Positions 2,290 through 11,736 of a stretch of DNA of 11,736 nt are shown here, piece after piece. The notes under the pieces were generated by a model. That model did not search any database, was not told the origin of the DNA, and was given only the letters and a program-made list of their open reading frames with translations. Origin of the DNA: an uncultured archaeon (GTDB lineage: Archaea > Asgardarchaeota > Lokiarchaeia > Sigyniarchaeales > SOKP01); contig CAZDTP010000089.1 in the NCBI GenBank assembly GCA_964508365.1, forward strand, positions 1-11,736. Reading direction: 5' to 3'. How positions within the stretch are numbered: the first letter of the stretch is position 1; each line of letters begins with the position of its first letter. Made by a program: the position numbers and the translations under genes.

Positions 2290-3144
2290 TTAGATGGTTT
2301 TACCCATTTTCTTTCGAGCTTTTTTAAGATCACTATCGGAGAATTTATGTACGAGCTTGGGAAATAATCTCATTATTCTCCAATATAATTTGGATGATCC
2401 TGCATGAATATATAGCTTCTCTTTCAATACGCCTTTGATAATAATTTCAGCTACTTCATCGGGTTGCATAAGTCCTCCTCTTTCAGCAATGATATTTAAC
2501 TCCTCCGGTCTACTTTTCGCTTCTTCATGGAGTCCAAAAGTATCAGTATCTGGAGGGTAGACTATAGAAACTTTAATATTATACGCCTTGTATTCATTTC
2601 TCAGGACCTCGCTTAGCCCAACGATCGCAAATTTAGTGGGGGTATACGCAGCATAACCCATTACACCAATGTATCCTGCAATAGAAGACATATTAACAAA
2701 ATGCCCTTTTTTTCGTTCCATATAATACGGCAATAATGTTAAAATTGAATTCAATTGACCAAAAAAATTGGTATCCATATGAAATTTAAAATCCTCGATA
2801 GTCAATTTATCTGTATAATTTGGATAGGATATCCCTACAAAATTAAATGAATAATCTGGAACACCAAACTCTTCAATGTAATCTTTAAATAACCGTTGAA
2901 CTTGTTCCATATTAGACATATCGCAAGAAATTACTTCCACTAGTTGATTTTCGTCTACTTTCAAGCTTTTAATCTCTTCAGCGGCAGCGTTTAATGTATC
3001 TAAAGTTCTTGCTACTATACACACATTCCCGCCTAATTGTACGAAAAATTTTGCTGTAGCTTTCCCAATCCCTTTTGAACCACCACTAATTATTGCCCAT
3101 TTTCCTTTGAACGGTTGTTTTTTTATTAATTTCTCTTTAGACAT
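2290..3144 (-). CDS. Short-chain dehydrogenase/reductase, KDSR (3-ketodihydrosphingosine reductase)-like subfamily
   Basis: Gly motif SGGSKGIG, basic residue after beta2 (VAR, NADP(H) preference), catalytic Ser (MSS) and YTPTK. The motif VYPPDTDTFG matches my recollection of the KDSR/TSC10 YPPDTDTPG signature. AGGATGA lies 6 nt upstream (3151-3157). Confidence 0.9.
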   Translation of the reverse strand: MSKEKLIKKQPFKGKWAIISGGSKGIGKATAKFFVQLGGNVCIVARTLDTLNAAAEEIKSLKVDENQLVEVISCDMSNMEQVQRLFKDYIEEFGVPDYSFNFVGISYPNYTDKLTIEDFKFHMDTNFFGQLNSILTLLPYYMERKKGHFVNMSSIAGYIGVMGYAAYTPTKFAIVGLSEVLRNEYKAYNIKVSIVYPPDTDTFGLHEEAKSRPEELNIIAERGGLMQPDEVAEIIIKGVLKEKLYIHAGSSKLYWRIMRLFPKLVHKFSDSDLKKARKKMGKTI

Positions 3145-3168
3145 TAGATTTCATCCTTGATTATAATT

Positions 3169-3564
3169 TTAGAAGTTTACATATCCGTAAATTAGGCTTA
3201 ATATGCCCATAATCAATACAATAGAAACAATCGATATACTCATGTAAGCGTCCATATTCTTTGTTTTGAATAGACCGTTTTGGAGATTAAAGGCTAGATC
3301 GATTAAACCTAAAAACATTAAACCTCCACCAGCAACGATAGTAAAAAATATCCCGAATCGTTCCCCTATTAGAAGTCCCGTTGCGGCAACAAGCAGACAT
3401 ACAGTAATTAACCCTAAATCTGGAAGGGGAAAAGACCTCTCGTGTTTTAAATACCATTCTTCTTTTTCTGGATTTCTGTTTTCAACCTTGAAAAAGAATA
3501 TCCAGAAACCTACTATTCCAGCCGCTAAAATTATTTGAACTATTGCTAATATAATTTCAATCAT
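3169..3564 (-). CDS. Small integral membrane protein, about 4 TM helices, function unknown
   Basis: 131 aa with four hydrophobic segments and a polar loop (KHERSFPLPD). AGGTGA lies 10 nt upstream (3575-3580). It ends 24 nt before the KDSR-like start, so co-transcription is likely. Confidence 0.85.
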   Translation of the reverse strand: MIEIILAIVQIILAAGIVGFWIFFFKVENRNPEKEEWYLKHERSFPLPDLGLITVCLLVAATGLLIGERFGIFFTIVAGGGLMFLGLIDLAFNLQNGLFKTKNMDAYMSISIVSIVLIMGILSLIYGYVNF

Positions 3565-3627
3565 TTTATTTTTCTCACCTTGTTAAGATTAATTTTAATC
3601 TATTGTTAAATATCGATTACCCTTATT

Positions 3628-3642
3628 ATTTAAACTTTTAAT
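3628..3642 (-). promoter_or_regulatory. Archaeal BRE + TATA box upstream of the 3564 gene
   Basis: The minus strand reads ATTAAAAG-TTTAAAT(A): a purine-rich BRE directly followed by a TATA box, 64 nt upstream of the ATG. The same 15-mer occurs at 4542-4556. Confidence 0.7.
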
Positions 3643-3672
3643 ATTACAAAAAAAATTGATTTGAAAAAACAA
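3643..3672 (-). terminator. Oligo-T terminator-like tract after the SDR gene
   Basis: The minus strand directly after the stop codon reads TTGTTTTTTCAAATCAATTTTTTTTTG. Oligo-U runs are the usual archaeal termination signal. Confidence 0.45.
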
Positions 3673-4488
3673 TTAATATTGCCATTCTTTAAAAGGATGT
3701 GCTGGTACTCCTACTTCAGCTATACCACCGTCTATAGGAAATATATGTCCTGTAATAAAATCACTTCTAGGAGACGCTAGAAAAATCATTAAATTTACGA
3801 CATCCTCAATCGTTCCAATTCTATTAAGAGGTGTTTTTACATCAGACATCTTTAAAGATTGTATTACAGTATCTTCGCTATTTCCGTAAATTCCAGTAAC
3901 GTGATAACCGGGAGCAATTGCGTTTGAAGTGATGAATGGTGCGAGAGTTTTTGCCATGAGCCGAGTTAAAGCAATAACTCCTGCCTTACTAATACTATAG
4001 GCCGAAAGCGTATCGTCAACGGCCATTCCTGCTATAGAGGTAGTGTGAATTACTTTACCTCTTAGGGGTTCCATTTTTTGCCTGTTCATCTTTCGACAAA
4101 CAGTCTTATCGACCAACCATTGCCCTTTAAGGTTTACGTTCAAGGTCGTGTCCCATGCTTTTTCGCTGATTTTCATAATGTCACTTCCCGCTTGAGCTGC
4201 GGTTCCAGCGTTATTAAATAATATGTAAACATTTTCGAGTTCATTAAATGTTTGTTCTGTCATACTTTTTACTTGCTTTGAATCTGAAACATCGCAAACT
4301 ATTGGAATAATTTTACATTTTGTTTCTTGCTCAATTTTCTTACTAGTTTCTCCTAATAATTCTTCGTTTATGTCAACTAAAACTAAATCTGCGCCTCTTT
4401 TCGCAAATTCATTAGCGACACCTCTTCCAAAACCGCTCGCGCCTCCGGTAATTAAAACTCCCTTCCCTTCTAAAAATTTTTCATTCAT
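3673..4488 (-). CDS. Classical short-chain dehydrogenase/reductase (FabG-like fold, probably NAD(H)-preferring)
   Basis: TGGASGFG, Asp after beta2 (VDIN), NNAG, catalytic Ser (TTS), YSISK, IAPG and C-terminal TPLNRIG...FLAS...FITG..FPIDGG. AGGATGA lies 6 nt upstream (4495-4501). Confidence 0.95.
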   Translation of the reverse strand: MNEKFLEGKGVLITGGASGFGRGVANEFAKRGADLVLVDINEELLGETSKKIEQETKCKIIPIVCDVSDSKQVKSMTEQTFNELENVYILFNNAGTAAQAGSDIMKISEKAWDTTLNVNLKGQWLVDKTVCRKMNRQKMEPLRGKVIHTTSIAGMAVDDTLSAYSISKAGVIALTRLMAKTLAPFITSNAIAPGYHVTGIYGNSEDTVIQSLKMSDVKTPLNRIGTIEDVVNLMIFLASPRSDFITGHIFPIDGGIAEVGVPAHPFKEWQY

Positions 4489-4651: not shown

Positions 4652-6271
4652 TTATACCGGAACGAGTGCATCCTGTCCATTTGTAAGCCAATCTAGATCA
4701 ATTTTTATTAGAGTAAGTGATTCTCGATAGTCATACTTACCCGTTTCAAATAATATAACGATAGTATAATCGGATAATATTGTAATTGAGGAATATGCTG
4801 ATGGACCTTCATATACCTGCTTTGAAACATTCCATGTCAACCCCTCATCATAGCTCATCCGGATAGTTAAGTGTCCGCGGGAAAAGAAGTTGGGATTAGA
4901 AAATAAAACACGAGATCGCGTGTGAGTAGATGTATTTGTAAAACGGTGTATTGAAGCCTGGGTGCCAGCAGCGGTAAGATCTTCTTCATAATACCAAGAA
5001 TTCCACGTATCACCCCCATTATTACTCCATGCCATTATTCTATTTCCTCCTCTCTCGGATCGACAATTTATGACTAATGAACCATTCGAGCTTTCAAACA
5101 CCTGTGGTTCCTCACCATTGCCGACATATCCGCCTTTAATCCATGTAAAACCATTGTCGTCACTATAAATAACACAAGCTTCTCCTATTTTGCTAGGAAT
5201 AATTAATCGACCGTTCGACATCTGAATCCCATTACCTGGTCCTGTTGCACAATATAATCCTCCGGCGGCTATTTCTTCGGTTAATTCTCTAGGTTCTGAC
5301 CAAGTAACACCCAAATCAGTACTGTTCATGATAAATACAGTATTATAGTCAACACAGAATGGCAACCATAAGGTTTGCGTATCGTTGTCGAATAGCGGAC
5401 AAGGATTATGAACTGTATGTTCTCCTCTATCTTGTAGAACTTGAATTGCACCCCAAGTTACTCCTCCATCTGTGCTTCGTTTCATTACAATATCTATATC
5501 TCCTAAATCAGACATTGCTTCAAAACGAGATTCACAAAAAGCAAGCATAACATCACCAGGCAAATTGATTAATGCAGGAATTCGATATCCTCGACCGGGT
5601 TGTTCTCCAGTAACAAATAATTGTTGTCTTTGTACGCCATCAGTCCATTGTGGATTCCAAAAAGCTAATGTTACACCAAAAACACCAAAAACGATTAGAA
5701 ACGCAATACCAGCAGCAGTTACACCACGTATTAATCTTACATCCCTTTTGTACCAGAATTTTTCCAAGAAAAATTTAAAACTGCTTACAATAAATAACCC
5801 AGCATATCCAAAAAACGGGATGGCAAGTACAAATATTAAAACTTCTGGTAGAGAACCAGCTGTTCCGAAGTAAAGGAACCGAAAAATGAAAATCAGTAAA
5901 ATTCCGACAAAAATATTCCAAATTGACCAAAATAACAGCCAAACTAATCTGAGTTTTTTACTTGATATATTCTCTAGCAATAATCCCCGCAATCGTCCTG
6001 ATTTTCTGCTAAGAACGGTCATGACAAAACTCCATATTGACCCTCCAATAAGCAAAATTCCAAATACGGGCAACACCCAATCTACCACATCTACAATTAA
6101 GAATTCACCTCCAAATAAAAGGAGTAAAAGCACCGCAACCATACCTATCAAAACCGAAAAGAATATCTGCAAAATTCCAACATAAAGGTGCCATTTAGGA
6201 GGTTTGGTTAAATAAGACTCCCCCTTTTTTTGTTCTGTATTATTTAAATCTTTTTCTTTAATCATAATCAT
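4652..6271 (-). CDS. Membrane-anchored sialidase/neuraminidase (GH33) with an N-terminal 5-TM domain
   Basis: YRIP motif, five Asp-boxes (STDGGVTW, STDLGVTW, SDDNGFTW, SNNGGDTW, SYDEGLTW), candidate Arg triad (YRIP, NCRS, SRGHL), Glu (GEEPQ), Tyr nucleophile (SAYSS) and acid/base Asp (MSDLG). The start is more plausibly ATG 6271 (or 6265) than the TTG at 6373, because the extra 34 codons look like AT-rich intergenic sequence. Confidence 0.92.
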   Translation of the reverse strand: MIMIKEKDLNNTEQKKGESYLTKPPKWHLYVGILQIFFSVLIGMVAVLLLLLFGGEFLIVDVVDWVLPVFGILLIGGSIWSFVMTVLSRKSGRLRGLLLENISSKKLRLVWLLFWSIWNIFVGILLIFIFRFLYFGTAGSLPEVLIFVLAIPFFGYAGLFIVSSFKFFLEKFWYKRDVRLIRGVTAAGIAFLIVFGVFGVTLAFWNPQWTDGVQRQQLFVTGEQPGRGYRIPALINLPGDVMLAFCESRFEAMSDLGDIDIVMKRSTDGGVTWGAIQVLQDRGEHTVHNPCPLFDNDTQTLWLPFCVDYNTVFIMNSTDLGVTWSEPRELTEEIAAGGLYCATGPGNGIQMSNGRLIIPSKIGEACVIYSDDNGFTWIKGGYVGNGEEPQVFESSNGSLVINCRSERGGNRIMAWSNNGGDTWNSWYYEEDLTAAGTQASIHRFTNTSTHTRSRVLFSNPNFFSRGHLTIRMSYDEGLTWNVSKQVYEGPSAYSSITILSDYTIVILFETGKYDYRESLTLIKIDLDWLTNGQDALVPV

Positions 6272-6640
6272 ATCAATGAGATTATCCTTTAAAAAGGTTA
6301 AATTAAGATAGATATTTTTTAATTCTAAGTACATTAACCAAAAGAAAATGAACCCAGGCAGGGTAGTCCTCAAACTTCTATATTTTATACGCTTGAATCA
6401 TTCACTTTTTATTTTTCTAATTATTTCTGTAAATGAGTATCAATAGCGTAGAGTATTTCTTGCATTTTAGGTCTATGTATGAAAAACGAAAGAATTCATA
6501 AACATATAATCAATCCTGCTCTTAAGTGTTTAATTACCTAAAATGATTTTAATGGAACCAAGGAAATTACAACCATACTTTTAAATATTAAATTAACATA
6601 TTAGTAAATCGCTAATATCAAAAAAATTTTTCAGCTTCAT

Positions 6641-6653: not shown

Positions 6654-9600
6654 TTGAAGAAAACTAAAAAAATGTTAATTGTCTTAGGGATTTTCATAAT
6701 GTTAAATTTAACTGTATTTATACCAAATAACTTACTTAATAATTATGATTTTCAAGATAAACCAACTCCAATTCATAGTAATGGAAATCAAATTCTTTTA
6801 CATACCCCCGAAAATATAACATACACTAGCCCAATGAGTGGATATTACCCTGCGACTTTTGGGTTTGAAGATGTTCCTGACGATTCTTTACCATCTTACT
6901 GTTATTATGACGCATGGGGCACATCTCCCGATTGGACTAATTCTTACACAAAAGTTATTGATGAAAAAACCGATAGTGCTGGAAATAAGCACAATAAAGT
7001 CTTAGTTCTAAATGATCTTTCAACTAGTAGTGCTTGCGGAAGTAATCTTAATTTTACTGAATATGGTTCTGAAATCGCAAGAGATAGTACAATAGAATTT
7101 TATTTCTGTATTAGAACTACTGGTTCAATACATTATGTAAGTCGTTTAAGTTTGTCTGGGAATTATGGTCCACTATTTACATTAAACTTTGATTCATGGA
7201 GTAGCTTAAATGATCCAGAAATACTATTCGTAAATAGTTCTGGGCAATATTCTACAGGATTTTATCAAGAATGGGAAAAATGGTATAGATATTCCGTTGA
7301 TTTATCTTGCGATGGAGGATATGCAGGATTAGGAGCAAATCAATTTAGATTTCGAATTTATAATGATACTGGTACTATGATTTATACTTCATACGCTATG
7401 GATTTTCAAATCGATCATCTAACAGGTGGACCAAATAGATTTACAATGATATCAACAGAATCTCAAACTCAACTTTATGAATATTTAGATGCGTTTAGTA
7501 TAACTGGGCTAGAAGATAGCTATGAAATTGGAGATAACTTAGAGGAAGGTTTATTACTTGGTTATGAGAATAATACTTCTTTTGATTGGCAAGGGTATTC
7601 CTTAGATGGTCAACCGAATAAAACAATTTTAGGGAATACTACTATTCCATTTCCGGATATAGGACTGCATACGATTCAAGTGTTCGCGAATGACTCGTTA
7701 GGACTGAACTACTGTTCGGACATAAGATATTTTACTGTTAGAAGCGTAATTCATATCATAACTCCAGAAAACAAAACATATACCGAACCAATGAGTGGGT
7801 ATTACCCCGCAACATTTGGATTTGAAGAGACAATTACTGGTACTTTACCCTCTTATTGTGATTATGCTCCGGGGGGTTCAAGTCCTGATGGTCCTGGCTC
7901 TTATGCGAAAGTTATTGATGGTTGGACCGATGGAGCGGGTAACACACACAAGAAAGTGTTAAAAATGTATGATAGGACTAGTAGTGGTACAACGCATGCA
8001 TCGCTTGACTTCACAGAGGATGGTTCCGAAATATTCCGAAATAGCACGATTGAATTCTGGGCGTGTAACACTCTTACAGGGAACTACTATCATAGTTATT
8101 TCGAAATCTGGGGTGATTTAGGAAATATGGTATCATTTGAATGGGATTCAGGTGGTACTACAAATGATCCAGAAGTAAGAATTACTCCTGCTACTGGAGA
8201 GTTTGGTACAGGTGTATATCACGAATGGAATCGATGGTATCGCTATTCCATTGATATTTCTTGTGACGGAGGTTATGCGGGATTAGGTGCCAATCAGTTT
8301 AGATTTCGAATCTATAATGAAACTGGAGATCTTATTTATTCCTCAGCAGACTTGGATTTACTAACTGCGCATCCTACAGGTGGTCCATATAGATATCACG
8401 TGTTATCAACAGAAACTCAATCTGATGTTTCTCACTACCTGGATGGTTTTGGTGTTACTGGATTGCAAGACAATTACATTACTGGGGATAATATTGAAGA
8501 AGGATTATTACTCAGTTTCGAAAATTCAACAGCTCTTGATTGGATGGGATATTCTCTGGATGGTCAAGAAATCAAAACGATTTTAGGAAATACAACATTT
8601 TCGTTCCCTGAAGATGGGAAGCATTCTATTCGTGTATTTGGAAACGACTCATTAGGAACTGAATATCAATCTGCTACACGCCATTTTTCAACTCATCATA
8701 TCTCGGTAGTAACTCCAGAAAACAAAACATACATTGGACCAATGAGTGGATATTATCCCGCTACTTATGGGTTTGAAAATGATGAAGACGGTACTTTTCC
8801 AAATGAATGGGTAGAAAGTGGACAAGGTGCCTATCAGGGAAAAACTAATGTTATTAATGCTAAGGATGGACATAATAAAGTTATACACATGGATGATGAT
8901 GGTACAACTGTACGAACGACGGCAGGTCAAATTTTCAATGAAGAACAATCAAGCGGGACTATTGAATTATGGACATATTTTACAAGTTATCCCTCTTCGT
9001 CTACAGACATTAGAATAGAAAATAGTTCAGGGAACCTTTTAACAGTCATTGGTGCTTGGGAGAACACTTGGAAATATAGAAACGGAACTACTGAGATTAC
9101 TGTTCCGTTAAGTTCCATAAATGAATGGTTTCACATAAGAATTGATTTTTGTTGCGTTGGAAACTATAATGGTTTGACTTCCCAAACTTATAATTTTACA
9201 ATCCGTAGATCAAATGGTTCTATTTATTACGAATCTCCAACAGCCTATTTTTTAAATTATGGTTTAGGCAATGCTGCTCGATTATCAATAACATCTTGGC
9301 AACTTGTTGTTAGAGAAACATGGATTGATGCCGTTGGATATTCGTGGGATCCTAATTATAACATTGGAGATAATCTAAAGGAAGGCTTATTACTGAGTTA
9401 TGAAAATAGTACTGCTCTTGATTGGCAAGGGTATTCTTTAGACGGTCAACCTGTAGCTACTATTTTTGGGAATACAACGATTAGATTACCAGAGGATGGA
9501 TCTCACATGATTAAGGTATTTGGAAATGATACATTTGGAGTTAATTATGAATCAAATATACGCCAATTTTCTGTTCACCATATTTCTATAGTAACTCCAG

Positions 9601-11736
9601 AGGATAAAGTCTACACTGGACCTATGAGTGGCTATTATCCTGCAATACATGGATTTGAGTGTGACGAAAACGATAATTTTCCGAAAGGATGGACTGATAA
9701 TTCTGGTGCTAATGGATATGCTAAAGTTATTGATGGAATTGGTGGACATAATAAAGTTTTAGAATGCTATAGCAGTTCGTCAGACGATTCTCGAGTCGAT
9801 TCAAGTATCTTTTTTGATTCTCAAGAGCATGGCTCAATTGAATTCTGGTGGTACAAATCTTCAAGTTATACCTCGGCAGCAATTGTAGATTTCTGGGGAG
9901 AAACTCCGGGTGCGTGTATCTCAATTAGGGTAGATCATTGGCCTAGTGCTGATAATAATCAAGTTCAGTATCAAACTGGTGCTGGTTATTTAGATACGGG
10001 ATATCCCTATTATGCTGATAATAAATGGATGCATTTCCGTATAGATTTTAATTGTATTTCGGATACATACAGTCTTTGGATAGATCAAGTAAAATATCTT
10101 GATAATATTGATTTTCTAAACTCAAAAGACGAAACTGGTGTTAATCAAACTCGCTTTGATAGTTATAATGCAGCAAACGCAGTTTTATATTATGTTGACG
10201 CTGTAAGTTTCTCATGGGATATAGATTATAGCGTTGGAGCTAATCTAAATGAAGGATTACTGCTTAGTTTTAAAAATTCAACGGAGCTAGAATGGATAGG
10301 TTATTCATTGGATAGTCAATCGAATAAAACAATTTTAGGAAATACTACAATTCCAATGCCCGAAGATGGAATTCATTCTATTCAAGTATTTGGAAACGAT
10401 TCATTGGGAGATAGGTATCAGTCGGATCTTAGATATTTCACTGTTGATTTTCCAATAGATATTATCACACCAGAAGCAAAAACATATATAAAAGGAATGA
10501 GCGGGTATTATCCCGGAACTTATGGGTTTGAAAATGATAAATATGGCGAACAAGCGCAAGATTGGTGGACTGAAAATGAAGTAAATTGTGATTCCCAAAT
10601 TATACCTTATTATAAAGGACATAATGACGTTTATGAATTATCAGATAACAATCCATCAGATAAAGCAGATATACTTAATACTTTTGAAAATAGGACTTAC
10701 GGAACTATTGAAGCATGGTTTCTTCATCGAGCAACTAGTTACTGGAGTGGTATAAGTATAGACTACCGATATCCTTTTGTAAGTATGATTTCGCTTGATT
10801 TTGTACCAGGAAGTTATTTAACTGTATCCAATGGTTCTACTCAAATCACTGTTCCTGAGTTGGGAACCATGCAAGCAGATACATGGTATCATATTAGATT
10901 TGATTTTAGAATAGCAGGGGCTCCACCATACATGGGATTATCAGATGATTCATTTATGATGTATTTAAATGGAAAAAAAATGAATGAAGAATTACTCCTT
11001 AAAAATATAGGATCTCCTATTAATACAATTAACTTTCGTACAGGATGGAGTGCAGCGGGACCAGATAATTTATTTTATGTAGATGCTGTGGGGTATTCGT
11101 GGGATCCTTATTATACTATTGGAGATAATATGAATGAAGGATTACTACTCAGTTATGAAAATAATACCAATCTTGATTGGCAAGGATATTCCTTAGATGG
11201 ACAAGCTAATGTAACTATTTATGGGAACACTACTATTCCATTACCGGATGTTTGTCAGCACACGATTCAAGTTTTCGCGAACGACTCATTAGGACTGAAC
11301 TACTATTCGAATATTAGATATTTTACGGTAAACACAACTCAATATCCTGATTTAATTGCTCCTGTCATAACAATCAATTTACCGGGGCTAAATACTCTTT
11401 TTGGAAATGATGCTCCTTCTTATGATTTAACGATTATAGAAACAGATTTGAACTCTATCTGGTATACTTTAGATGGAGGGACGGTAAATACTACTATAAC
11501 TGAACCAACCGGAACGATTTCGTTATCAATATGGAGTAATCGTCCAAATGGAACAGTAGATATTAGATTCTATGCTGATGATCTCGCAGGAAATGTTGGA
11601 TTTGAAGACGTGAAAGTTAGAAAAGATACAATAGCGCCACAAATTACGATTATCAGCCCAATTGAAAATCAAGTCTTTTATGATACTGCTCCAAGTTTTG
11701 ATTTAACGATAATTGAGGGGAACCTAGGTGGTATTT
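6654..11736 (+). CDS. Giant secreted/cell-surface repeat protein (3' end outside window): signal peptide, five Ig-like domains each carrying an inserted jelly-roll/lectin-like domain, then plain Ig-like repeats
   Basis: Manual translation of frame +3 from TTG 6654 (alternative ATG 6672) shows no stop through 11735, i.e. 1694 codons. The N-terminus MKKTKKMLIVLGIFIMLNLTVFIP has a basic n-region and a hydrophobic h-region. The five-fold protein repeat stays in frame throughout. The ORF track omits it, presumably because it has no stop in the window. Confidence 0.95.
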   Translation, partial: MKKTKKMLIVLGIFIMLNLTVFIPNNLLNNYDFQDKPTPIHSNGNQILLHTPENITYTSPMSGYYPATFGFEDVPDDSLPSYCYYDAWGTSPDWTNSYTKVIDEKTDSAGNKHNKVLVLNDLSTSSACGSNLNFTEYGSEIARDSTIEFYFCIRTTGSIHYVSRLSLSGNYGPLFTLNFDSWSSLNDPEILFVNSSGQYSTGFYQEWEKWYRYSVDLSCDGGYAGLGANQFRFRIYNDTGTMIYTSYAMDFQIDHLTGGPNRFTMISTESQTQLYEYLDAFSITGLEDSYEIGDNLEEGLLLGYENNTSFDWQGYSLDGQPNKTILGNTTIPFPDIGLHTIQVFANDSLGLNYCSDIRYFTVRSVIHIITPENKTYTEPMSGYYPATFGFEETITGTLPSYCDYAPGGSSPDGPGSYAKVIDGWTDGAGNTHKKVLKMYDRTSSGTTHASLDFTEDGSEIFRNSTIEFWACNTLTGNYYHSYFEIWGDLGNMVSFEWDSGGTTNDPEVRITPATGEFGTGVYHEWNRWYRYSIDISCDGGYAGLGANQFRFRIYNETGDLIYSSADLDLLTAHPTGGPYRYHVLSTETQSDVSHYLDGFGVTGLQDNYITGDNIEEGLLLSFENSTALDWMGYSLDGQEIKTILGNTTFSFPEDGKHSIRVFGNDSLGTEYQSATRHFSTHHISVVTPENKTYIGPMSGYYPATYGFENDEDGTFPNEWVESGQGAYQGKTNVINAKDGHNKVIHMDDDGTTVRTTAGQIFNEEQSSGTIELWTYFTSYPSSSTDIRIENSSGNLLTVIGAWENTWKYRNGTTEITVPLSSINEWFHIRIDFCCVGNYNGLTSQTYNFTIRRSNGSIYYESPTAYFLNYGLGNAARLSITSWQLVVRETWIDAVGYSWDPNYNIGDNLKEGLLLSYENSTALDWQGYSLDGQPVATIFGNTTIRLPEDGSHMIKVFGNDTFGVNYESNIRQFSVHHISIVTPEDKVYTGPMSGYYPAIHGFECDENDNFPKGWTDNSGANGYAKVIDGIGGHNKVLECYSSSSDDSRVDSSIFFDSQEHGSIEFWWYKSSSYTSAAIVDFWGETPGACISIRVDHWPSADNNQVQYQTGAGYLDTGYPYYADNKWMHFRIDFNCISDTYSLWIDQVKYLDNIDFLNSKDETGVNQTRFDSYNAANAVLYYVDAVSFSWDIDYSVGANLNEGLLLSFKNSTELEWIGYSLDSQSNKTILGNTTIPMPEDGIHSIQVFGNDSLGDRYQSDLRYFTVDFPIDIITPEAKTYIKGMSGYYPGTYGFENDKYGEQAQDWWTENEVNCDSQIIPYYKGHNDVYELSDNNPSDKADILNTFENRTYGTIEAWFLHRATSYWSGISIDYRYPFVSMISLDFVPGSYLTVSNGSTQITVPELGTMQADTWYHIRFDFRIAGAPPYMGLSDDSFMMYLNGKKMNEELLLKNIGSPINTINFRTGWSAAGPDNLFYVDAVGYSWDPYYTIGDNMNEGLLLSYENNTNLDWQGYSLDGQANVTIYGNTTIPLPDVCQHTIQVFANDSLGLNYYSNIRYFTVNTTQYPDLIAPVITINLPGLNTLFGNDAPSYDLTIIETDLNSIWYTLDGGTVNTTITEPTGTISLSIWSNRPNGTVDIRFYADDLAGNVGFEDVKVRKDTIAPQITIISPIENQVFYDTAPSFDLTIIEGNLGGI
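6789..11330 (+). repeat. Five tandem intragenic modules
   Basis: The anchor motif MSGYYP starts at 6834, 7791, 8742, 9624 and 10497 (periods of 319, 317, 294 and 291 codons). Each module ends with LLLxY/FxNxTxxxWxGYSLDxQ...GNTT...HxIxVFxNDxxG...RxFxV/T. Confidence 0.95.
11349..11736 (+). repeat. Uninterrupted Ig-like repeats (one complete 92-aa unit, second truncated by window end)
   Basis: DLIAPVITINLP...APSYDLTIIE..LNSIWYTLDGG...IRFYADDLAGN (11349-11624), followed by DTIAPQITIISP...APSFDLTIIEGNL (from 11625). Confidence 0.85.

What the first reader, a model, noticed from the sequence alone, without database searches (positions are those of the whole stretch)
6789..11330. Nested architecture: a 211-239 aa domain inserted inside each Ig-like domain, five times
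Seen: each module has a short head (I.I.TPE.KTY, 16-17 aa between modules), an insert (MSGYYP...G.N..EG of 239, 238, 215, 211 and 215 aa) and a tail of exactly 63 codons in all five copies (7551-7739, 8505-8693, 9387-9575, 10257-10445, 11142-11330). Head plus tail align with the intact Ig-like unit later in the same protein: ITINLPGLNTLF with IHIITPENKTY, LNSIWYTLDG with LDWQGYSLDG, and NGTVDIRFYADDLAG with DGSHMIKVFGNDTFG. Inference: the Ig domain is split after its first strand, so the Ig units form a continuous stalk with the inserted domains projecting sideways. A plain Pfam scan would probably miss the split domain.
Basis: partly seen in the sequence, partly recalled or inferred. Interest (0 to 1): 0.8.

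Follow-up and report, generated by a model that had tools for sequence, protein, structure and literature searches.

The report
Lectin-like domains nested in Ig stalk
An Asgard (Loki-type) archaeon encodes a membrane-anchored surface protein in which five successive Ig-like stalk domains each carry a lectin-like jelly-roll domain inserted after their first strand; this unannotated building block recurs in hundreds of proteins from related archaea.

The parts
6654..11736 (+). 5' 1694 codons of the surface-protein gene. It has a TTG start and is cut by the contig end. It continues on contig C47 (reverse strand, C47:33027-32710) for 87 more residues.
   Evidence: exact 55-nt overlap and synteny
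6654..6734 (+). Signal-peptide-like N-terminus: a Lys-rich stretch followed by a hydrophobic stretch.
   Evidence: homologues start with the same pattern. No signal-peptide predictor was run.
6789..6833 (+). Head 1 (Ig strands A/A'), directly after the leader.
6834..7550 (+). Insert 1, a jelly-roll domain of 239 aa.
7551..7739 (+). Tail 1 (Ig strands B-G), 63 aa.
7740..7790 (+). Head 2.
7791..8504 (+). Insert 2, 238 aa; 54% identical to insert 1.
8505..8693 (+). Tail 2.
8694..8741 (+). Head 3. Ordered in the full model and disordered when tail 3 is removed.
8742..9386 (+). Insert 3, 215 aa, concanavalin/LamG-like jelly roll.
9387..9575 (+). Tail 3.
9576..9623 (+). Head 4.
9624..10256 (+). [not shown]
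10257..10445 (+). Tail 4.
10446..10496 (+). Head 5. Disordered in the model when present without its own insert and tail.
10497..11141 (+). Insert 5, 215 aa. The only insert with even a sub-threshold Pfam Laminin_G_3 hit.
11142..11330 (+). Tail 5.
11358..11633 (+). Intact (uninterrupted) Big_13-like Ig repeat.
11634..11735 (+). Start of a second intact Ig repeat, completed on C47.

Best explanation
The gene encodes a cell-surface glycoprotein of an Asgard (Promethearchaeota/Loki-type) archaeon of about 1781 aa. Its order is signal peptide, five nested modules, about two and a half plain Ig-like repeats, then a C-terminal 'PGY + hydrophobic helix + Lys-rich tail' anchor. Each module is one Ig-like beta-sandwich. 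Its first strands (A/A', the 16-17-aa head) are separated from strands B-G (the 63-aa tail) by a complete concanavalin/LamG-like jelly roll of 211-239 aa placed in the A'-B connection. The last strand of one Ig is joined to the first strand of the next by only about 2 residues. The Ig parts therefore most likely form one rod rising from the membrane, with a lectin-like domain held at each joint (inferred, geometry not inspected). The head, the tail and the two junction segments of the insert are strongly conserved, and the Ig part carries the conserved N-glycosylation sequons. The interior loops of the jelly roll are variable and differ among the five copies. The most likely function (inferred, not shown) is multivalent binding of several different glycans or partner-cell surface molecules, that is, an adhesin or capture brush.
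For: Architecture:
- Module boundaries are as stated.
- The two-module AF2 model has pLDDT 92 and pTM 0.81. Heads that precede their own insert and tail are ordered; the orphan terminal head is disordered.
- In the tail-deleted construct the jelly roll is unchanged, but the head falls from pLDDT 94-95 to 48-55 and loses strands 3-7 and 12-13.
- At least seven different homologues have insert-less copies with the head fused directly to the tail. P0276 even keeps the first residues of the insert motif, so these look like clean secondary deletions.
- A head+tail profile aligns with intact Ig repeats over columns 2-75 against 3-84 at 95.4% probability. With the head reversed, only the tail aligns.
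- In 161 mapped modules the head sits 30-75 residues from the protein start with no tail before it. The single-module paralogue on C91 is ordered head-insert-tail.

Insert fold:
- Foldseek gives the same families.
- The jelly-roll alignments start at model residues 316-318 in most of the 50 rows and never earlier than 310, so the head strands (297-301, 306-307) are never included.

Surface display:
- The N-terminus looks like a signal peptide.
- The gene continues on C47 to a membrane anchor, and synteny with L003 confirms the join. Full-length homologues have the same ends.

Constant frame, variable interior:
- Mean information is 2.85 bits (head), 1.65 (insert) and 2.69 (tail).
- Sequons at profile columns 10, 238, 254, 260 and 278 occur in 51-80% of 615 modules.
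Against: - No coordinates were available, so head-tail pairing is inferred from confidence and DSSP changes between constructs, not read from contacts.
- All structural evidence is prediction.
- The lower confidence of the orphan head could partly reflect a more heterogeneous alignment at that end.
- Direct-coupling analysis could not separate the true head/tail pairing from shuffled controls.
- No ligand site was identified and no Pfam lectin family reaches its cut-off in this protein. Structural neighbours also include enzymes (GH16, PL7, GH131), so binding as the function is an inference.
Confidence: 0.8

Rival explanations
1. Linear order without insertion: the head is a C-terminal extension (an extra hairpin strand) of the preceding tail, so the domains run jelly roll, sandwich, jelly roll, sandwich.
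For: Only 2 residues separate the last tail strand from the next head strand in the DSSP string, which would also fit a tight hairpin.
Against: The head placed after tail 4 without its own module is disordered. The first head has nothing before it and is ordered. In 161 modules the head follows the leader directly. Insert-less copies place the head before the tail, not after it.
Confidence: 0.03
2. The head is an N-terminal strand of the jelly roll, and the tail is a separate, shortened six-strand sandwich.
For: The head is contiguous with the insert. The segment right after it (MSGYYP..GFE) is among the most conserved parts.
Against: Deleting only the tail abolishes the head's strands and confidence while the jelly roll is unchanged. 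The structural alignments of the jelly roll start no earlier than model residue 310, after the head strands. The head stays with the tail when the insert is absent.
Confidence: 0.05
3. The nested architecture holds, but the inserted jelly rolls are enzymes (glycoside hydrolase or polysaccharide lyase of GH16/PL7/GH131 type), making the protein a surface-bound multi-enzyme.
Confidence: 0.1
4. The nested architecture holds, but the protein is mainly structural (part of a cell-envelope canopy or sheath) rather than a binding molecule.
For: It has a C-terminal anchor, heavy predicted N-glycosylation of the frame and a rigid repeat rod. There are many paralogues per genome.
Against: The module number and content differ sharply between close relatives whose flanking genes are 79-96% identical. 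The exposed loops are the variable part. This pattern fits recognition better than scaffolding.
Confidence: 0.15

Closest known systems
Nested pilus-tip adhesins RrgA (2ww8), GBS104 (3txa) and Mfa5, as described in PMC7835359
   Same: A binding domain is inserted between strands of an IgG-like stalk domain, so that the stalk domain is built from two separated sequence segments. All are surface proteins with further Ig-like stalk domains.
   Different: In those proteins the insert is a vWF-A domain with a MIDAS site, inserted once, between strands B and C of a CnaA-like domain stabilised by an isopeptide bond. Here the insert is a concanavalin/LamG-like jelly roll placed after strands A/A'. The nested unit is repeated 2-7 times in tandem, the organisms are Asgard archaea, and no isopeptide or sortase features were looked for.
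Integrin beta subunit, betaI domain inserted in the Ig-like hybrid domain (textbook knowledge, not tested here)
   Same: A ligand-binding domain is nested in an Ig-like sandwich of an extended cell-surface leg.
   Different: The insert has a different fold (vWF-A), occurs once, and is eukaryotic. No sequence relation.
Accessory carbohydrate-binding domains of sialidases: BT_1020 (5mqs/5mqr), Akkermansia Am1547 (8hls), Vibrio cholerae lectin domain (2w68); Pfam PF22585 Sialidase-like_CBM and PF13385 Laminin_G_3
   Different: Sequence identity is 12-14%. The inserts of this protein stay below the Pfam cut-offs. Those domains are attached to enzymes, not nested in Ig repeats. Ligand residues were not compared.
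Fibrillar adhesins with repeated stalk domains (PMC9210967)
   Same: They have a signal peptide, a rod of repeated Ig-like domains and a cell anchor, and are fast evolving.
   Different: Classical fibrillar adhesins carry one adhesive domain at the tip. Here each of five stalk domains carries its own.
Archaeal huge proteins rich in Laminin_G_3 (PMC11573180)
   Same: They come from the same lineages and use the same jelly-roll family. Giant relatives contain the insert domain alone in long tandem arrays.
   Different: In those proteins the jelly rolls are strung linearly, and no split Ig frame is described.

Membership tests
Ig-like beta-sandwich of Big_13 / OmpL47 type (PF19077, NF047446) | Sequence match above the curated cut-off | tested here: not met
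   Whole protein: Big_13 scores 14.8 bits against a cut-off of 27, and OmpL47 scores 23.7 against 40; both hits lie in the intact repeats, not in the split domains. Insert-less copies give no Pfam hit. The intact repeats of homologue P0003 do pass (34.4 bits).
Ig-like beta-sandwich of Big_13 / OmpL47 type (PF19077, NF047446) | Head+tail is colinear with an uninterrupted repeat of the family | tested here: met
   hhalign local gives 95.4% probability, E 2e-8, query columns 2-75 against template columns 3-84, with the junction in the A-B loop. The reversed-head control aligns the tail only.
Ig-like beta-sandwich of Big_13 / OmpL47 type (PF19077, NF047446) | Two-sheet sandwich of about 7-9 strands | tested here: inconclusive
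   DSSP shows 2 strands in the head and 7 in the tail. Sheet geometry could not be inspected and no structural hit to the Ig part was listed, because the jelly roll fills the hit lists.
Concanavalin A-like lectin/glucanase clan (Laminin_G_3 PF13385, Sialidase-like_CBM PF22585) | Sequence match above the Pfam cut-off | tested here: not met
   Only insert 5 gives hits: 17.6 bits against 27.6 and 14.4 against 27. The other four inserts give none. Many homologues carry precomputed hits.
Concanavalin A-like lectin/glucanase clan (Laminin_G_3 PF13385, Sialidase-like_CBM PF22585) | Jelly-roll beta-sandwich fold | tested here: met
   [not shown]
Concanavalin A-like lectin/glucanase clan (Laminin_G_3 PF13385, Sialidase-like_CBM PF22585) | Carbohydrate-binding site | not testable with these tools
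   No coordinates and no ligand modelling. The conserved residues lie mostly at the domain junctions.
Nested Ig-stalk adhesins (RrgA/GBS104/Mfa5 type) | Binding domain inserted between strands of an Ig-like stalk domain | tested here: met
   Supported by the construct comparison and by insert-less homologues. This rests on prediction, not on a solved structure.
Nested Ig-stalk adhesins (RrgA/GBS104/Mfa5 type) | Inserted domain is vWF-A with a MIDAS site | tested here: not met
   The insert is an all-beta jelly roll.
Loki-CTERM sorting domain (NF033507) | C-terminal PGY-type motif, hydrophobic helix and basic tail, matching the HMM | tested here: inconclusive
   The pattern is visible in the C47 continuation. 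No HMM hit at E of 0.01 or better for that 105-aa piece. Homologue P0276 scores 19.2 against 19.9, and several homologues are named so by NCBI.
GH16 / PL7 type jelly-roll enzymes | Conserved catalytic acidic strand motif | tested here: inconclusive
   No such motif appears among the invariant columns of 144-145-sequence alignments. This rests on inspection only.

The most novel reading that the evidence does not exclude
The Ig-with-nested-jelly-roll unit is a lineage-specific recognition system of Loki-type Asgard archaea. Constant, glycosylated Ig frames would present exchangeable, highly variable lectin-like cassettes. The number and identity of these cassettes turn over quickly between close relatives. 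This would give each strain a combinatorial surface code for partner-cell or substrate recognition, possibly coupled to the membrane TIR and LRR receptor proteins encoded next to, or built from, the same modules.
Probability: 0.2. Interest if true: 0.75.

Novelty: new variant of a known kind. Interest (0 to 1): 0.5.

Why it matters
Loki-type Asgard archaea are the closest known prokaryotic relatives of eukaryotes. They live in tight contact with partner organisms, yet the molecules on their surface are almost uncharacterised. This work defines a repeat unit of about 290 aa that standard annotation does not recognise: Pfam calls nothing above cut-off in a 1700-aa protein. The unit occurs in hundreds of proteins (636 cluster representatives at E below 1e-30) and has an unusual, testable architecture. 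Knowing that the unit is head + insert + tail, and not a linear string of domains, sets correct construct boundaries for expression, structure determination and glycan or partner binding assays. It also gives a profile for annotating these genomes. In addition, the many natural copies with and without the insert make it a clean natural example of tolerated domain insertion in an Ig fold.

Tried and rejected
- Complex prediction with the tail-1 alignment (A6) and the leader+head-1 alignment (A5): verdict 'no answer' (scores 0.07 and 0.21, mark 0.32). This is not evidence either way.
- Direct-coupling analysis on 615 modules (Meff about 526). The full alignment gave 10 head-tail against 1 head-insert couplings in the top 150, including 10-291, 5-234 and 12-291. 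Matched controls pairing head(n+1) with tail(n), or head(n) with module n+1, gave similar counts, so the result is inconclusive and is not used.
- Sequence search of PDB chains with the module profile and with the insert-less Ig profile: no meaningful hit.
- Pfam and NCBIfam on the whole protein, on single inserts and on insert-less Ig copies: nothing above the cut-offs.
- ESM Atlas shape search with the two-module model: only single jelly-roll matches (Sialidase-like_CBM clusters) and no nested look-alike. The model is longer than recommended for this search, so this does not show that the arrangement is absent elsewhere.
- Literature searches for Asgard + LamG/Ig-like, Loki-CTERM, and nested Ig domain insertion found no description of this module.
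- Recent gene conversion of the frames in this gene: rejected here. Tail DNA copies are only 64-74% identical and there are no near-identical patches.
- A functional link to the divergent BNR/sialidase-like neighbour: the adjacency is kept in a close relative (L003) but not at the P0002/P0004 locus, so it is not used as evidence.

Full report
**What is in the window**

The window is a whole contig (C89) of a 4.07-Mb, 31.8% G+C assembly. The ORF 6654-11736 (+) is open at the contig end and gives 1694 residues. It starts with a Lys-rich and then hydrophobic stretch that looks like a signal peptide. Five modules follow, then plain Ig-like repeats.

- Inserts of 239, 238, 215, 211 and 215 aa, each beginning with MSGYYP and ending with EG.
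- Five tails of exactly 63 codons at the stated coordinates.
- Heads of 16-17 aa carrying TPE.K.Y.

A sixth module lies in a paralogue on contig C91. That protein has one module, one plain Ig repeat, a membrane helix and a leucine-rich-repeat region after it.

**Who else has it**

- A word-indexed search returned 248 (long) and 406 (short) related proteins.
- Every hit that carries an organism name is an Asgard MAG (Promethearchaeota/Lokiarchaeota, Hermod-, Odin-, Thor-, Hod-, Hel-, Kari-archaeota).
- A profile of the six modules found 3357 cluster representatives at E of 1e-3 or better and 636 at 1e-30 or better. These typically have 2-7 full modules in tandem.
- Among 201 species-representative genomes of the phylum, matches at E of 1e-20 or better were found in 28 of 40 genomes of the organism's own family, in 3 of 10 genomes of one other family, and in none of the other 25 families sampled.
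- Some giant proteins contain only the insert domain in long arrays. Others contain only the Ig part. The two components therefore also exist on their own.

**Test of the nested architecture: two-module model**

The tools give confidence values and DSSP strings but no coordinates, so I chose constructs whose outcomes differ between the hypotheses.

The first construct was P0001 681-1281: head 3, insert 3, tail 3, head 4, insert 4, tail 4 and head 5. It was folded with an alignment of 144 two-module segments. Both the nested and the linear hypothesis leave exactly one head without a partner in this construct. The model is confident (mean pLDDT 92.0, pTM 0.81, all five models at 90.6 or above).
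- Head 3, with nothing before it, has pLDDT 94-95 and strands at 3-7 and 12-13.
- Head 4 shows the same pattern, at 297-301 and 306-307.
- Head 5, which only follows a tail, has pLDDT 65 falling to 42 and no 5-residue strand.

A head is therefore ordered by what follows it, not by the preceding tail.

**Test of the nested architecture: tail deletion**

The second construct was 681-911 (head 3 + insert 3, tail removed), folded with 145 equivalent segments. The jelly roll keeps the same strands and pLDDT above 90. The first 20 residues drop to pLDDT 48-55 and both head strands disappear. The tail was the only thing removed, so in the full model the head's strand partner is the tail.

**Comparative evidence**

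- A head+tail HMM finds 23 contiguous matches in the fetched homologues. Seven different proteins score strongly (92-132 bits), and three more score weakly. In these the head runs directly into the tail, usually next to full modules.
- In P0276 the junction still keeps the first residues of the insert motif, so these copies look like clean secondary deletions. The Ig frame evidently tolerates both the presence and the absence of the insert.
- I built a profile of head+tail concatenates and compared it with a profile of intact Ig repeats. The intact-repeat profile was built with all module hits masked. The two align over columns 2-75 against 3-84 at 95.4% probability, with the junction in the A-B loop.
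- With the tail alone, or with the head columns reversed, only the tail part aligns. The gain in score from the head is small, 43.8 against 42.9.
- In 161 mapped modules the head lies 30-75 residues from the protein start, directly after the leader, where no preceding tail exists.

**What the insert is**

VIA-align against 48,161 PDB representatives gives a concanavalin/LamG-type jelly roll:

Foldseek on the insert-only model gives the same picture. The alignments begin at model residues 316-318 in most rows and never earlier than 310, after the head strands.

By sequence, only insert 5 gives a sub-threshold Laminin_G_3 hit, and the whole protein has no Pfam or NCBIfam hit above cut-off.

**Ends of the protein**

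- The last 55 nt of the window are identical to the reverse-complemented end of contig C47. Reading on gives 87 further residues, ending in a PGY motif, a hydrophobic helix and a Lys-rich tail.
- In a related metagenome contig (L003) the homologous surface gene is flanked upstream by a BNR protein and downstream by TIR and RelA/SpoT genes. In this genome the BNR gene is in the window (96% identity), and the TIR and RelA/SpoT genes lie on C47 just after the fragment (79% and 85% identity). The join is therefore sound and the protein has about 1781 residues.
- More plain repeats could be collapsed at the assembly break.
- Full-length homologues have the same layout and the same kind of C-terminus. 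NCBI names this C-terminus Loki-CTERM in several of them. The HMM itself was not matched by the C47 piece.

**Conservation pattern**

- Over 615 modules, mean information is 2.85 bits per column in the head, 2.69 in the tail and 1.65 in the insert.
- Within the insert, the two junction segments and three framework strands are conserved, and long interior stretches are nearly free.
- Within this protein, tails are 59-81% identical, heads 40-75% and inserts 22-54%.
- N-x-S/T sequons at profile columns 10, 238, 254, 260 and 278, all in the Ig part, occur in 51-80% of modules.
- The homologue at the syntenic locus of L003 has a free N-terminal jelly roll and three modules. Only one of them is close (78% identity) to a module here, although the flanking genes are 79-96% identical. 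Module content therefore turns over quickly.
- In this gene the tail DNA copies are only 64-74% identical, so there is no sign of recent gene conversion.

**Mechanism**

Supported at the level of prediction and comparison:
- The Ig fold is split after strands A/A' by a complete jelly roll.
- The nested unit is repeated five times.
- The protein has a secretion signal and a C-terminal anchor.

Inferred:
- The Ig parts form a continuous rod, because only about 2 residues link strand G to the next strand A and pTM is 0.81.
- Each jelly roll sits at an Ig-Ig joint, because the A-B connection lies at the C-terminal end of an Ig sandwich.
- The conserved junction segments form a fixed interface, and the variable loops face outward and bind different glycans or partner-surface molecules.

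The enzyme and purely structural alternatives are not excluded.

**Comparison with known systems and novelty**

Insertion of a binding domain between strands of an Ig-like stalk domain is documented for the pilus-tip adhesins RrgA and GBS104 and for Mfa5 (PMC7835359). It is also textbook knowledge for the integrin beta subunit.

The differences here are:
- The fold of the insert (jelly roll, not vWF-A).
- The insertion point (after A/A').
- The tandem repetition of the whole nested unit.
- The lineage.

Laminin_G_3 is already known as the commonest domain of archaeal giant proteins (PMC11573180), and repeated Ig stalks are known from fibrillar adhesins (PMC9210967). I found no description of this composite module.

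I therefore rate it a new variant of a known kind, of moderate interest. First-reader notes of this scan describe what appears to be the same module in other genomes. I used them only as leads.

**What led nowhere**

The complex prediction gave no verdict. Coupling analysis did not beat its controls. PDB sequence searches and the Atlas shape search gave nothing specific.

Noticed in passing
window 11682-11736 and L002 (G000:C47:31500-33027), C47:33027-32710 reverse strand: The contig ends inside the gene. Its last 55 nt are identical to the reverse-complemented end of C47. C47 supplies the last 87 residues with a PGY + membrane helix + Lys-rich anchor. A TIR-domain gene (C47 32463-30607) and a RelA/SpoT gene (30210-27491) follow, as in the related contig L003.
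   Followed up: yes
window 4652-6373 (-): A divergently transcribed BNR/sialidase-like protein of 573 aa (BNR_2 E 1.8e-32). It is 96% identical to the one beside the homologous surface gene in L003. It is absent from the P0002/P0004 locus (L004), where a TIR gene sits between two module proteins instead. The best structural matches of the inserts are sialidase accessory domains, which may or may not be a coincidence.
   Followed up: partly
L001:498-2669 (G000:C91:8297-10468, +): A paralogue with a receptor-like layout: signal peptide, one nested module, one plain Ig repeat, a membrane helix, a leucine-rich-repeat region and further hydrophobic segments at the C-terminus.
   Followed up: partly
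P0276:356-437, P0277:347-428, P0181:49-130, P0015:913-995, P0146:550-630, P0218:297-378, P0103:968-1049: Natural insert-less copies of the same Ig frame next to full modules. P0276 keeps the first residues of the insert motif at the junction, which suggests precise loss of the jelly-roll cassette.
   Followed up: yes
P0126 (4942 aa), P0131 (6545 aa), G165:C163 (open frame 11,629 aa), G192:C23 (6008 aa): Giant proteins of related genomes carry the insert-type jelly roll alone in arrays of up to 21 matched stretches, without the split Ig frame.
   Followed up: no
L003:4473-8840 (P0010) compared with window 6654-11736: The surface gene at the syntenic locus of a close relative has a free N-terminal jelly roll plus three modules instead of five. 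Only one module is 78% identical, while the flanking genes are 79-96% identical. This indicates rapid module turnover at a fixed locus.
   Followed up: partly
profile columns 10, 238, 254, 260, 278 of the module (for example window 6813-6821 in head 1): Five N-x-S/T sequons are conserved in 51-80% of 615 modules. All lie in the Ig frame and none in the jelly roll. P0001 has 38 sequons in 1694 aa.
   Followed up: partly
window 2290-4488 (-): Two short-chain dehydrogenase genes (284 and 271 aa) flank a small 131-aa ORF. The adh_short gene and the 131-aa ORF recur upstream of the BNR gene in L003.
   Followed up: no
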